Source: Escherichia coli (GTDB lineage: Bacteria > Pseudomonadota > Gammaproteobacteria > Enterobacterales > Enterobacteriaceae). Taken from it: 391 nucleotides of DNA. The first letter of the stretch is position 1. Each line of letters begins with the position of its first letter. The position numbers and the translations under genes are program-made. The notes below the pieces were generated by a model that saw only the letters and a list, made by a program, of their open reading frames with translations, was not told the DNA's origin and ran no database searches. The stretch lies in assembly GCF_003334255.1 (NCBI RefSeq), contig NZ_QOWU01000249.1, one strand, 5' to 3'. Positions 1 to 391 of the stretch are shown in pieces.

Positions 1-54
1 CAGGAGGTGCCGTCGGAAGATGCCAGGGCTGATAATCCGTTACAGAGGCTGTAA
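1..54 (+). CDS. possible 3' end of an upstream CDS entering from the left (frame 1, ...QEVPSEDARADNPLQRL*)
   Basis: Frame 1 is open from position 1 to TAA at 52-54, and the translated tail has ordinary mixed charged/polar composition. Only 17 codons are visible, so this cannot be confirmed; frame 2 is also open to TGA at 80-82. Confidence 0.15.
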   Translation, partial: QEVPSEDARADNPLQRL

Positions 55-57
55 TGG
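37..57 (+). promoter_or_regulatory. hairpin (9-bp stem incl. one G-U, loop AGG) enclosing the candidate SD and start codon of ORF 54-290
   Basis: CCGTTACAG (37-45) pairs with CTGTAATGG (49-57): C37-G57, C38-G56, G39-T55 wobble, T40-A54, T41-A53, A42-T52, C43-G51, A44-T50, G45-C49. SD AGAGG 44-48 and ATG 54-56 lie inside it. Any regulatory role is inferred. Confidence 0.35.
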
Positions 58-290
58 TTGCCTCCGGAGCAGTTTGCAGTGATGCCTTTCCCGGGAATGG
101 ATTGCCAGTGCGGGGACTGTGGAGCTTAATTCCGGTGTTGGTGGCCTTTCCGTTGATTTTATGCCAACAGCCCCCTGTGACTGACAGGCTGCCTCGTCAT
201 TCCATTCGTATCTCCAGTAACAGGGGGTTGTATTGTATTTTATTGTGCCGGTTCAGATGTGCGTTTCCCGGCGCGTCTGCACCGGCTTAA
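54..290 (+). CDS. hypothetical small protein (78 aa), doubtful; possibly a small hydrophobic peptide, or a spurious ORF over noncoding structured DNA
   Basis: ATG 54-56 to TAA 288-290. For: AGAGG at 44-48 with 5-nt spacer acts as a plausible SD; the ATG overlaps the TAA (52-54) of upstream frame 1 as TAATG; residues 22-37 (LWSLIPVLVAFPLILC) are hydrophobic. Against: 5 of 7 Arg codons are AGG/AGA/CGG; product is Cys/Pro/Arg/Leu-rich with no recognisable motif; the ORF spans hairpins, a palindrome and direct repeats. Confidence 0.25.
   Translation: MVASGAVCSDAFPGNGLPVRGLWSLIPVLVAFPLILCQQPPVTDRLPRHSIRISSNRGLYCILLCRFRCAFPGASAPA
78..96. repeat. copy 1 of imperfect direct repeat (CAGTGATGCCTTTCCCGGG), core GCCTTTCCCGG at 84-94
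   Basis: Matches 254-272 at 14 of 19 positions by manual alignment; the core matches 261-271 at 10 of 11. A shorter third copy lies at 143-152. Confidence 0.5.
88..97. repeat. 10-bp perfect palindrome TTCCCGGGAA; candidate dimeric protein-binding site, function unknown
   Basis: Reverse complement of 88-97 is identical to itself. It sits inside copy 1 of the direct repeat. At roughly 1 in 1024 per position, chance occurrence in 391 bp is not negligible. Confidence 0.4.
143..152. repeat. copy 2 (short) of direct repeat core: GGCCTTTCCG
   Basis: GCCTTTCC at 144-151 is identical to 84-91; spacing from copy 1 is 60 bp. Confidence 0.4.
167..231 (+). other. nested stem-loop: 12-bp outer stem (167-178 / 220-231, CCCCC/GGGGG core) enclosing an inner hairpin (182-188 / 192-199, loop CTG, one bulged C195); candidate structured RNA element
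   Basis: ACAGCCCCCTGT (167-178) pairs with ACAGGGGGTTGT (220-231). As DNA the match is 11 of 12; as + strand RNA the mismatch becomes a G170-U228 wobble, whereas the minus strand would have a C-A mismatch, so the structure is slightly more stable if the + strand is transcribed. Confidence 0.45.
226..247. repeat. T-rich tandem pentamer array GGTTG-TATTG-TATTT-TATTG-TG immediately 3' of the nested stem-loop
   Basis: TATTG 231-235, TATTT 236-240, TATTG 241-245, preceded by GGTTG 226-230. This is the most AT-rich stretch of the window. Confidence 0.45.
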
Positions 291-337
291 CCAAATTCAA
301 CAGGGATAAAATAGTGGTAAGCGTACAGCCTGAACCG
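249..337. repeat. 8-bp perfect inverted repeat CGGTTCAG (249-256) / CTGAACCG (330-337) bracketing 73 bp
   Basis: Exact reverse complements. The pairing does not extend (C248/T338 and A257/C329 mismatch). Could be a long-range RNA pairing or chance. Confidence 0.3.
254..272. repeat. copy 3 of imperfect direct repeat (CAGATGTGCGTTTCCCGGC), core GCGTTTCCCGG at 261-271
   Basis: See copy 1. Start-to-start spacing between copy 1 and copy 3 is 176 bp. Confidence 0.5.
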
Positions 338-341
338 TCTG

Positions 342-354
342 GTCAGAATCTGAC
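342..354 (+). other. small hairpin GTCAG-AAT-CTGAC (5-bp stem, 3-nt loop)
   Basis: G342-C354, T343-A353, C344-G352, A345-T351, G346-C350. Short and of uncertain significance. Confidence 0.25.
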
Positions 355-391
355 GAATTAGACAAAGTGGTGTCCACCAAATAAGTAGTGG

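What the first reader, a model, noticed from the sequence alone, without database searches (positions are those of the whole stretch)
37..57. Candidate SD and start codon of ORF 54-290 are enclosed in a 9-bp hairpin that also carries a TAATG stop/start overlap
The hairpin CCGUUACAG-AGG-CUGUAAUGG (37-57) contains the AGAGG SD (44-48), the frame-1 stop TAA (52-54) and the ATG (54-56). TAATG overlaps are typical of translationally coupled genes, and SD/start sequestration is a common translational control device, for example in small toxin mRNAs. Either the downstream ORF is translated only when an upstream ribosome melts the stem, or the hairpin belongs to a noncoding element and the ORF is spurious.
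Basis: partly seen in the sequence, partly recalled or inferred. Interest (0 to 1): 0.5.

Follow-up and report, generated by a model that had tools for sequence, protein, structure and literature searches.

The report
Chance hairpin at a gene's stop codon
The hairpin is really there and sits on the stop codon of a real E. coli island gene, but the reading frame it was thought to control is not a conserved gene and the hairpin is not kept in related sequences, so this is most likely ordinary.

Summary
A 9-bp hairpin (8 Watson-Crick pairs plus 1 G-U, loop AGG) at 37-57 encloses GAGG, TAA (52-54) and ATG (54-56). It has a pairing probability of at least 0.89 in every context tested.

Frame 1 is a real gene. 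The TAA ends an annotated 144-aa zinc-ribbon protein (DUF7828 plus Zn_ribbon_11) in an E. coli chromosomal island.

The regulatory reading is not supported.
- **ORF 54-290:** RefSeq never annotates it, and it has no family match. Its 78-aa form occurs only in the near-identical IS66-bearing alleles sampled. All six more divergent E. coli alleles carry one extra C in the run at 171-175 and stop after 43 codons. Three more distant lineages keep GTAATG but have only 9-15 codons after the ATG.
- **The stem:** those lineages have lost it, and no compensatory change is seen.
- **Chance:** a hairpin this stable occurs somewhere in 32% of shuffles of the window.

The rest of the window is decayed intergenic DNA, then the conserved leader and GTG start (314-316) of a UCP030791-family gene. 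That gene is cut immediately afterwards by an IS66-family element (317-391).

Interest is low.

The parts
1..54 (+). 3' end of the annotated 144-aa zinc-ribbon protein gene (WP_001221615.1), encoding ...QEVPSEDARADNPLQRL and the TAA stop at 52-54. This is the variable C-terminal tail, outside the Pfam domains.
   Evidence: The window is 100% identical to E. coli ATCC 11775 NZ_CP033092.2 4156003-4156393, where the CDS ends at window position 54. Pfam DUF7828 covers residues 4-89 and Zn_ribbon_11 covers 93-128, so residues 129-144 lie outside both domains. Other lineages have alternative C-termini.
37..57 (+). The 9-bp hairpin with loop AGG that covers the last five sense codons, the TAA stop and the ATG at 54-56. 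It is real as a predicted structure, but nothing supports a function.
   Evidence: Searches show that it exists and is stable. One search gives the chance level (32% of shuffles). Searches show it is not conserved: L014, L015, L017, L011, L012 and L016 lack the stem, A44T in EC14 breaks a pair, and C49T in two alleles turns G-C into G-U.
54..290 (+). The 78-codon ORF that starts at the TAATG overlap. It is judged spurious. The 78-aa form results from a one-base-shorter C-run (171-175) in the IS66-bearing alleles.
   Evidence: No CDS is annotated here in any record inspected. It matches no Pfam, NCBIfam or PADLOC family. Protein hits are E. coli-like only, 43-107 aa long, with several frameshifted C-termini. 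It is 43 aa in six more divergent alleles and 15, 10 or 9 codons in L014, L017 and L011. Differences from L014 fall mainly at codon positions 1 and 2 of this frame.
167..249 (+). A long imperfect stem (167-183 against 215-231) followed by a U-rich, indel-variable TGTAT/TTTAT stretch (232-249). It lies inside the ORF, looks like a terminator, and was not tested.
   Evidence: the repeat finder reports it as I2, 17 nt and 88% complementary. The fold of 160-250 gives -29.1 kcal/mol with z = -2.9. A weak terminator-like hit lies at 210-228. Deletions of 6 and 12 nt occur at 225-236 among alleles.
194..316 (+). Conserved upstream leader and GTG start codon (314-316) of a UCP030791-family gene. The leader holds a hairpin (core 254-279, outer arms GCCGGT 248-253 and ACCGGC 281-286).
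   Evidence: This stretch is about 76% identical to the region upstream of UCP030791-family genes in paralogous islands. GTG 314-316 aligns with the GTG start of VQITEALL... in L008, L010, L013, L014 and L017. The hairpin 254-279 has -13.6 kcal/mol, reached by 24 of 500 shuffles. The outer arms are kept in L008, L010 and L013.
317..391 (+). Left terminal inverted repeat and left end of an IS66-family insertion sequence. It begins GTAAGCG, and its tnpA starts 18 nt past the window.
   Evidence: tnpA, tnpB and tnpC are annotated directly downstream. The matching right inverted repeat ...GCTGTACGCTTAC lies at L003:10586-10615. The IS-free allele MS14384 diverges from the window after position 316. 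Plasmid copies share identity only from about 316 onward.

Best explanation
The hairpin is an incidental inverted repeat in the last codons of a real gene. That gene is the second of two overlapping zinc-ribbon (DUF7828/Zn_ribbon_11) genes in an E. coli chromosomal island. The TAA at 52-54 is simply this gene's stop codon.

The ATG that overlaps it opens a fortuitous reading frame through decaying, indel-prone intergenic DNA, not a gene. The frame reaches 78 codons only because the island variant carrying the IS66 insertion has lost one C from a C-run. So there is no translational coupling and no SD or start sequestration device to explain.

Shown here:
- The gene end is real.
- The hairpin is predicted to be stable.
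- The ORF and the stem are not conserved.
- The window layout is gene end, decayed spacer, leader and start codon of a UCP030791-family gene, then the IS66 left end.

Inferred: the hairpin has no regulatory role. It may mildly affect local mRNA structure or 3' decay, as any stable hairpin would.
For: - **Gene end:** the annotation and translation show that the zinc-ribbon CDS ends at window position 54. The Pfam domains end at residue 128, so the hairpin lies in a non-domain tail that differs between lineages.
- **ORF annotation and families:** RefSeq/PGAP does not annotate it in the 12 records inspected. It matches no Pfam, NCBIfam or PADLOC family.
- **ORF homologues:** among 5.8 billion proteins, all but one of the 53 hits are 69-100% identical. 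The 13 that carry an organism name are all named as E. coli. They are 43-107 aa long and have several mutually frameshifted C-termini.
- **ORF length by allele:** the four IS66-bearing alleles sampled (window, Nissle 1917, 042, 4/0) have 5 C's and 78 aa. The six alleles without that junction (JML285, NGF1, OkiPb01703, MS14384, EC14, Z1323) have 6 C's and 43 aa.
- **More distant lineages:** three lineages of the same gene keep GTAATG, but the ATG is followed by only 15, 10 or 9 codons.
- **Substitution pattern:** differences between the window and L014 are 7/3/3 and 5/9/5 at codon positions 1/2/3 of the ORF frame, so there is no third-position excess.
- **Stem:** it is absent in L014, L015, L017, L011, L012 and L016. 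The only variation within E. coli is A44T (breaks a pair, changes Q to L) and C49T (G-C to G-U, synonymous). No compensatory pair is seen.
- **Chance level:** 32% of shuffles contain an equally stable hairpin.
- **Known RNA families:** no Rfam family comes near its threshold; the best scores 19.7 bits against a gathering score of 45.
Against: - The hairpin is very stable in context (pairing probability at least 0.89). GAGG lies 5 nt before an ATG that overlaps the stop codon, which is the textbook geometry for coupling.
- The first 43 codons stay open in all ten E. coli alleles sampled. They include a hydrophobic stretch (LWSLIPVLVAFPLIL) like that of a small membrane protein.
- Among these alleles I count about 5 synonymous and 6 non-synonymous changes in those codons. 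This is too few to show neutrality.
- All E. coli alleles are at least about 91% identical, so lack of covariation within them is weak evidence.
- No expression data were available.
Confidence: 0.8

Rival explanations
1. A lineage-specific small protein (43 aa in most alleles, 78 aa in the IS66-bearing ones, with one hydrophobic segment) is translated by ribosomes that terminate at TAA 52-54, melt the stem and reinitiate at ATG 54-56.
For: The geometry fits: TAATG overlap, GAGG 5 nt upstream, and the start codon paired in a stable stem. The first 43 codons are open in all ten E. coli alleles sampled. Residues 22-37 are hydrophobic.
Against: The ORF is not annotated anywhere and has no family match. 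It is lost in L014, L017 and L011, even though nucleotide similarity continues to about 75% over window 90-205 in L014. Its C-terminal half is frameshift-variable. There is no third-position excess in this frame. The stem is not conserved.
Confidence: 0.07
2. The hairpin acts on the zinc-ribbon mRNA itself. It could serve as a 3' stabiliser against exonucleases, a processing site, or a pause at termination, without any downstream gene.
For: It is a stable local hairpin exactly at the end of the coding region. It is identical in seven of the ten E. coli alleles sampled.
Against: No U-run follows it (TTGCCTCCGG), so it is not an intrinsic terminator. The stem is absent from the homologous gene ends of three other lineages. 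The alleles that keep it are too similar for this to count as conservation. A larger terminator-like stem lies further downstream at 167-249.
Confidence: 0.08
3. The sequence after the TAA is a relic, or a low-level read-through extension, of the zinc-ribbon gene itself. The frame continues as WLPPEQFAVMPFPGMDCQCGDCGA*. The hairpin would then sit at an old internal position of a longer gene.
For: Differences between the window and L014 show a third-position excess in that frame: 7 of 13 before a 1-nt indel, and 9 of 19 after it in the shifted frame. The extension is Cys-rich (CQCGDC), like a zinc knuckle. In L014 the frame stays open for 33 codons after the TAA. One metagenomic variant, P0109, has TCA instead of TAA and reads through.
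Against: The excess is 16 of 32, with binomial p = 0.04 before correction for three frames. The TAA is present in all four lineages. blastx of the downstream DNA finds no similarity to any zinc-ribbon homologue other than read-through or frameshift artefacts.
Confidence: 0.03
4. The inverted repeat is a DNA-level site, for example one recognised by the neighbouring YagK/YfjJ (inovirus Gp2-like) protein or by a recombinase.
For: A gene of the YagK/YfjJ family, which shows a weak hit to the REP_ORF2-G2P family, lies about 1 kb upstream in every locus examined.
Against: Loci with the same gene set lack the palindrome. It is not repeated elsewhere in the window. Nothing here ties this protein family to such a site.
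Confidence: 0.02

Closest known systems
Translational coupling at overlapping stop/start codons in bacterial operons (for example the UGAUG overlap of trpE-trpD; from general knowledge)
   Same: It has a TAATG overlap, a GAGG inside the end of the upstream coding region 5 nt before the ATG, and a start codon buried in structure that a terminating ribosome would open.
   Different: The downstream frame is not a conserved gene. It is frameshifted among E. coli alleles and absent in related lineages. The true coupled pair at this locus is the two zinc-ribbon genes themselves, which overlap by 13 nt (L003:7620-7632).
Start-codon or SD sequestration in type I toxin mRNAs (hok/sok, tisB/istR and similar; from general knowledge)
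   Same: It has a small ORF with one hydrophobic segment whose start codon is paired in a stable stem.
   Different: No Rfam toxin or antitoxin RNA family matches, even at E = 10. No promoter-like site was found on either strand. Neither the stem nor the ORF is conserved. The hairpin is a simple local stem inside another gene, not a long-range 5'-3' fold.
Intrinsic (Rho-independent) terminator
   Same: It is a stable hairpin located right at the end of a gene.
   Different: No U-tract follows it, and the stem has only 4 G-C pairs out of 9. The terminator scan does not report it.
IS66-family insertion sequence (for 317-391)
   Same: The terminal repeat starts GTAAGCG, a matching right end is present, and tnpA, tnpB and tnpC follow.
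   Different: No 8-bp target duplication is found, and the right flank is unrelated to the sequence expected from IS-free alleles. This implies a later deletion or rearrangement. tnpC is frameshifted in ATCC 11775.

Membership tests
Translationally coupled overlapping gene pair | The upstream frame is a real gene that terminates at the overlap. | tested here: met
   The annotated zinc-ribbon CDS ends at window position 54. Pfam DUF7828 and Zn_ribbon_11 both match it.
Translationally coupled overlapping gene pair | The downstream frame is a real protein-coding gene that is conserved. | tested here: not met
   It is never annotated and has no family match. It is 43 aa in six alleles, and 9-15 codons in L014, L017 and L011. 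Its C-termini are frameshift-variable.
Translationally coupled overlapping gene pair | A Shine-Dalgarno sequence lies at a workable distance from the downstream start. | tested here: met
   GAGG at 45-48 lies 5 nt before ATG 54. A 4-nt match is weak evidence.
Translationally coupled overlapping gene pair | Downstream expression depends on upstream translation. | not testable with these tools
   This needs reporter fusions or ribosome profiling.
Regulatory hairpin that sequesters the SD or start codon (as in type I toxin mRNAs) | A stable structure covers the start codon or the SD. | tested here: met
   ATG 54-56 is fully paired, and the pair probabilities are 0.89-1.0. The AGG of the SD lies in the 3-nt loop.
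Regulatory hairpin that sequesters the SD or start codon (as in type I toxin mRNAs) | The stem is conserved or covaries among homologues. | tested here: not met
   The stem is absent in L014, L015, L017, L011, L012 and L016. Only single-sided changes are seen within E. coli (A44T and C49T).
Regulatory hairpin that sequesters the SD or start codon (as in type I toxin mRNAs) | It matches a described toxin or antitoxin RNA family, or a partner antisense RNA is present. | tested here: not met
   No relevant Rfam hit appears at E up to 10. No promoter-like site is found on either strand, although that scan is only a consensus match.
Intrinsic terminator | A G+C-rich stem is followed directly by a run of U. 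| tested here: not met
   The tail after the stem is TTGCCTCCGG, and the terminator scan does not report it.
IS66-family insertion sequence (317-391) | Terminal inverted repeats begin GTAAGCG, and tnpA-tnpB-tnpC lie between them. | tested here: met
   The left end is at window 317, and the right end is at L003:10586-10615 with 22 of 30 bases matching. The three genes are annotated.
IS66-family insertion sequence (317-391) | An 8-bp target-site duplication flanks the element. | tested here: not met
   AAATAGTG occurs only once, and the right flank is unrelated to the IS-free allele.

The most novel reading that the evidence does not exclude
E. coli islands of this type encode a previously unannotated small membrane protein of about 43 aa. 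Its translation is gated by a stop-codon hairpin and coupled to termination of the zinc-ribbon gene. This would be a young, lineage-specific gene born from decaying intergenic DNA.
Probability: 0.05. Interest if true: 0.35.

Novelty: not a real feature. Interest (0 to 1): 0.08.

Why it matters
If the coupling model were true, it would add one more small, structure-gated ORF to a poorly understood module of E. coli islands (YagK/YfjJ, two zinc-ribbon proteins, UCP030791). As things stand, the value is a negative result and a caution. Textbook-looking geometry (SD, a TAATG overlap, the start codon in a stem) arises easily by chance at gene ends. A long ORF in a window can come from a single-base indel in one clonal allele. 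The window is otherwise explained by existing annotation plus an IS66 insertion.

Tried and rejected
- **Rfam, both strands, E up to 10:** only sub-threshold eukaryotic lncRNA, miRNA and snoRNA noise appeared.
- **Peptide-pattern scan of 100,044 species genomes with the zinc-ribbon protein:** it returned one near-identical contig labelled as a Collinsella MAG and no diverged homologues. I obtained diverged loci through protein search plus look-up of encoding contigs instead.
- **Census of the C-run allele with 61- and 62-nt megablast queries:** 1006 records match the window allele exactly and 109 match the MS14384 allele exactly. The remaining records differ by nearby substitutions, so exact frequencies of 5-C versus 6-C could not be read off. 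I sampled ten alleles directly instead.
- **NCBIfam and PADLOC on the ORF, both zinc-ribbon proteins and the YagK/YfjJ protein:** nothing of use was found.
- **Literature searches for YfjJ/YagK and for UCP030791, DUF7828, Zn_ribbon_11 and PF11682:** nothing relevant was found.
- **Plasmid matches starting at 292 rather than 317:** I checked whether this meant the IS is longer. Alignment shows only chance similarity before about 316.
- **Intrinsic terminator reading for 37-57:** rejected because there is no U-run.
- **blastx of the downstream DNA against the zinc-ribbon homologues:** apart from weak chance-level matches (E above 0.01), it found only read-through or frameshift artefacts.

Full report
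**What the window is**

The 391 bases are 100% identical to the chromosome of E. coli ATCC 11775 (NZ_CP033092.2 4156003-4156393). About 1,930 of 5,426 complete E. coli genomes hold a place that covers at least 80% of the window. In the annotated record the window begins inside a 144-aa 'zinc-ribbon domain-containing protein' (WP_001221615.1). Its CDS ends at window position 54, and translation gives ...QEVPSEDARADNPLQRL*.

That gene overlaps a first zinc-ribbon gene by 13 nt and follows a YagK/YfjJ ('inovirus Gp2 family') gene. An Ag43 adhesin gene, a GTPase-family gene and the fec genes are nearby, so this is a horizontally acquired island. Pfam places DUF7828 at residues 4-89 and Zn_ribbon_11 at 93-128. 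The last 16 codons, which include the hairpin, are therefore a tail outside the conserved domains.

Eighteen bases after the window, the tnpA of an IS66-family element starts.

**The observation**

The hairpin is exactly as described:
- Pairs: C37-G57, C38-G56, G39-U55, U40-A54, U41-A53, A42-U52, C43-G51, A44-U50, G45-C49.
- Loop: AGG.
- Landmarks: TAA at 52-54, ATG at 54-56, and GAGG at 45-48.

Its free energy is -9.3 kcal/mol alone. It is in the MFE structure of 1-120. Each pair has a probability of 0.89-1.0 when 120 to 696 nt of context, including the upstream gene, are folded.

The hairpin is not statistically special, however. 32% of dinucleotide shuffles of the window contain an uninterrupted hairpin at least as stable, a mean of 0.37 per shuffle. 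From that density I estimate a 1-2% chance for any given stop codon, which means dozens per genome.

**Is ORF 54-290 a gene?**

- **Annotation.** None of the RefSeq or GenBank records I inspected annotates a CDS between the zinc-ribbon gene and the IS66 tnpA.
- **Families.** The product matches no Pfam, NCBIfam or PADLOC family.
- **Homologues.** A search of 5.8 billion proteins returned 53 hits, all but one 69-100% identical. The 13 that carry an organism name are all named as E. coli. They are 43-107 aa long and have several mutually frameshifted C-termini...FRCAFPGASAPA...GSGVRFPARLHRLNQIQQG, or truncation at ...QQPPCD.
- **Alleles.** Direct comparison of ten E. coli alleles explains this pattern. 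The four that carry the IS66 junction (window, Nissle 1917, 042, 4/0; at most 4 differences in 316 nt) have five C's at 171-175 and a 78-codon frame. All six alleles without that junction (JML285, NGF1, OkiPb01703, MS14384, EC14, Z1323) have six C's and stop after 43 codons. They also carry 6- or 12-nt deletions in the TGTAT repeat at 225-236.

The 78-aa ORF is therefore most simply a by-product of a single-base deletion in one near-clonal island variant.

**More distant relatives**

I recovered loci encoding zinc-ribbon homologues of 46-85% identity and aligned their 3' ends. Three lineages keep the hexamer GTAATG at the homologous place, but each has lost both the ORF and the stem:
- **L014 and L015 (85% aa identity):** the sequence there is CAGTTGCAGATACGGTAATG. 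The ATG is followed by 15 codons.
- **L017 (84%):** part of the 5' arm is deleted. The ATG is followed by 10 codons.
- **L011, L012 and L016:** the protein ends earlier at a TGA because of indels in a G-run. GTAATG then lies in the 3' untranslated region and is followed by 9 codons.

None of these lineages forms the 37-57 stem in predicted folds. The most distant relatives (L010, L013 and L018) end at a TGA and show no GTAATG or comparable stem at that place.

In L014, nucleotide similarity to the window continues at about 75% over 90-205. The ORF frame there is nevertheless broken by a 27-nt gap, a 1-nt indel and stop codons. The differences fall 7/3/3 and 5/9/5 on codon positions 1/2/3 of the ORF frame, so there is no third-position excess.

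Within E. coli, the only changes in the stem are A44T (EC14; breaks a pair and changes Gln to Leu) and C49T (OkiPb01703 and Z1323; G-C to G-U, synonymous Leu). No compensatory change is seen.

**What remains possible**

The first 43 codons are open in all ten E. coli alleles and contain a hydrophobic segment. I count about 5 synonymous and 6 non-synonymous changes there, too few to distinguish constraint from neutrality. A young, lineage-specific small protein therefore cannot be excluded, and I give it about 5-7%. A role of the stem in stabilising the 3' end of the zinc-ribbon mRNA is also possible, at about 8%. It is not an intrinsic terminator, because no U-run follows it.

**The rest of the window**

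- **194-316.** This stretch is about 76% identical to the sequence upstream of 'UCP030791 family putative phage-derived protein' genes in paralogous islands. GTG 314-316 aligns with their GTG start codon, which opens VQITEALL....
- **317-391.** The IS66-family element begins at 317 (GTAAGCG...), immediately after that start codon. Its right end lies at L003:10586-10615. There is no target duplication, and the right flank is unrelated to the IS-free sequence, so the gene body was lost. In the IS-free allele MS14384 the gene is also dead, with TAA as its second codon.
- **55-193.** This is a spacer specific to this lineage. In other islands an AlpA-family gene sits between the zinc-ribbon genes and the UCP030791 gene.
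- **Structures.** A long stem at 167-183 against 215-231, followed by a U-rich tail, is stronger than expected from shuffles (z = -2.9). A hairpin at 254-279 lies in the conserved leader.

**Comparison with known systems and verdict**

The geometry resembles translational coupling at overlapping stop and start codons, and start sequestration in type I toxin mRNAs. The defining features that could be tested here are a real, conserved downstream gene, a conserved or covarying stem, and a match to a described RNA family. None of them is met.

The finding is best filed as a real but incidental hairpin at the end of an annotated gene, plus a spurious ORF. Interest is low.

Noticed in passing
window 314-391; L003:8314-10615: An IS66-family element is inserted immediately after the GTG start codon of a UCP030791-family gene. 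There is no 8-bp target duplication, and the right flank is unrelated to the IS-free allele, so the gene body was deleted. About 1,930 complete E. coli genomes hold a place that covers at least 80% of the window, which suggests they share this junction.
   Followed up: yes
window 248-286; L008:~3040-3090; L010 and L013 upstream of the UCP030791 gene: A hairpin (GCCGGT...ACCGGC, core 254-279, -13.6 kcal/mol) lies in the leader of UCP030791-family genes. Its outer arms are kept across paralogous islands that are only about 76% identical, and the paralogues carry a better-paired version (G in place of window T254). It could be an operator or a leader RNA structure.
   Followed up: partly
window 167-249: A long stem (167-183 against 215-231; -29.1 kcal/mol, z = -2.9) is followed by a U-rich TGTAT/TTTAT stretch that varies by 6- and 12-nt deletions among alleles. 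It may be the terminator of the zinc-ribbon operon, but this was not tested.
   Followed up: partly
window 55-190; L014:1556-1660: After the TAA the zinc-ribbon frame continues as WLPPEQFAVMPFPGMDCQCGDCGA*. Differences from L014 show a weak third-position excess in that frame (16 of 32, p about 0.04 uncorrected). One metagenomic variant (P0109) has TCA instead of TAA and reads through. This may be a relic of a longer ancestral gene.
   Followed up: partly
L011:2860-2920, L016:1215-1275, compared with the sequence just upstream of window position 1: The C-terminal tail of the zinc-ribbon protein exists in at least three forms: ...AWGRQEVPSEDARADNPLQRL, ...EGGLQEGNWKDRN and ...AVCTKSVYSYRSDLLLAP. 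The second form differs from the first by indels in a G-run. Several homologues look like mosaics of the two adjacent zinc-ribbon paralogues (P0084, P0086, P0107).
   Followed up: partly
L009 (JAIJJM010000559.1); P0057; P0087: Near-identical copies of this E. coli island gene sit on short contigs labelled Collinsella sp. MAG, Veillonella sp. MAG and Pseudomonas aeruginosa. These are probably binning or contamination errors rather than transfer.
   Followed up: no
L008, L010, L013, L014 and L017: A gene module recurs at one end of these islands: YagK/YfjJ, two overlapping DUF7828/Zn_ribbon_11 genes, sometimes an AlpA-family gene, then UCP030791, followed in two of the loci (L008, L010) by a ProQ/FinO-family gene. 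The three island proteins scanned (YagK/YfjJ and both zinc-ribbon proteins) match no NCBIfam model and nothing significant in PADLOC. The literature search found nothing on the module.
   Followed up: partly
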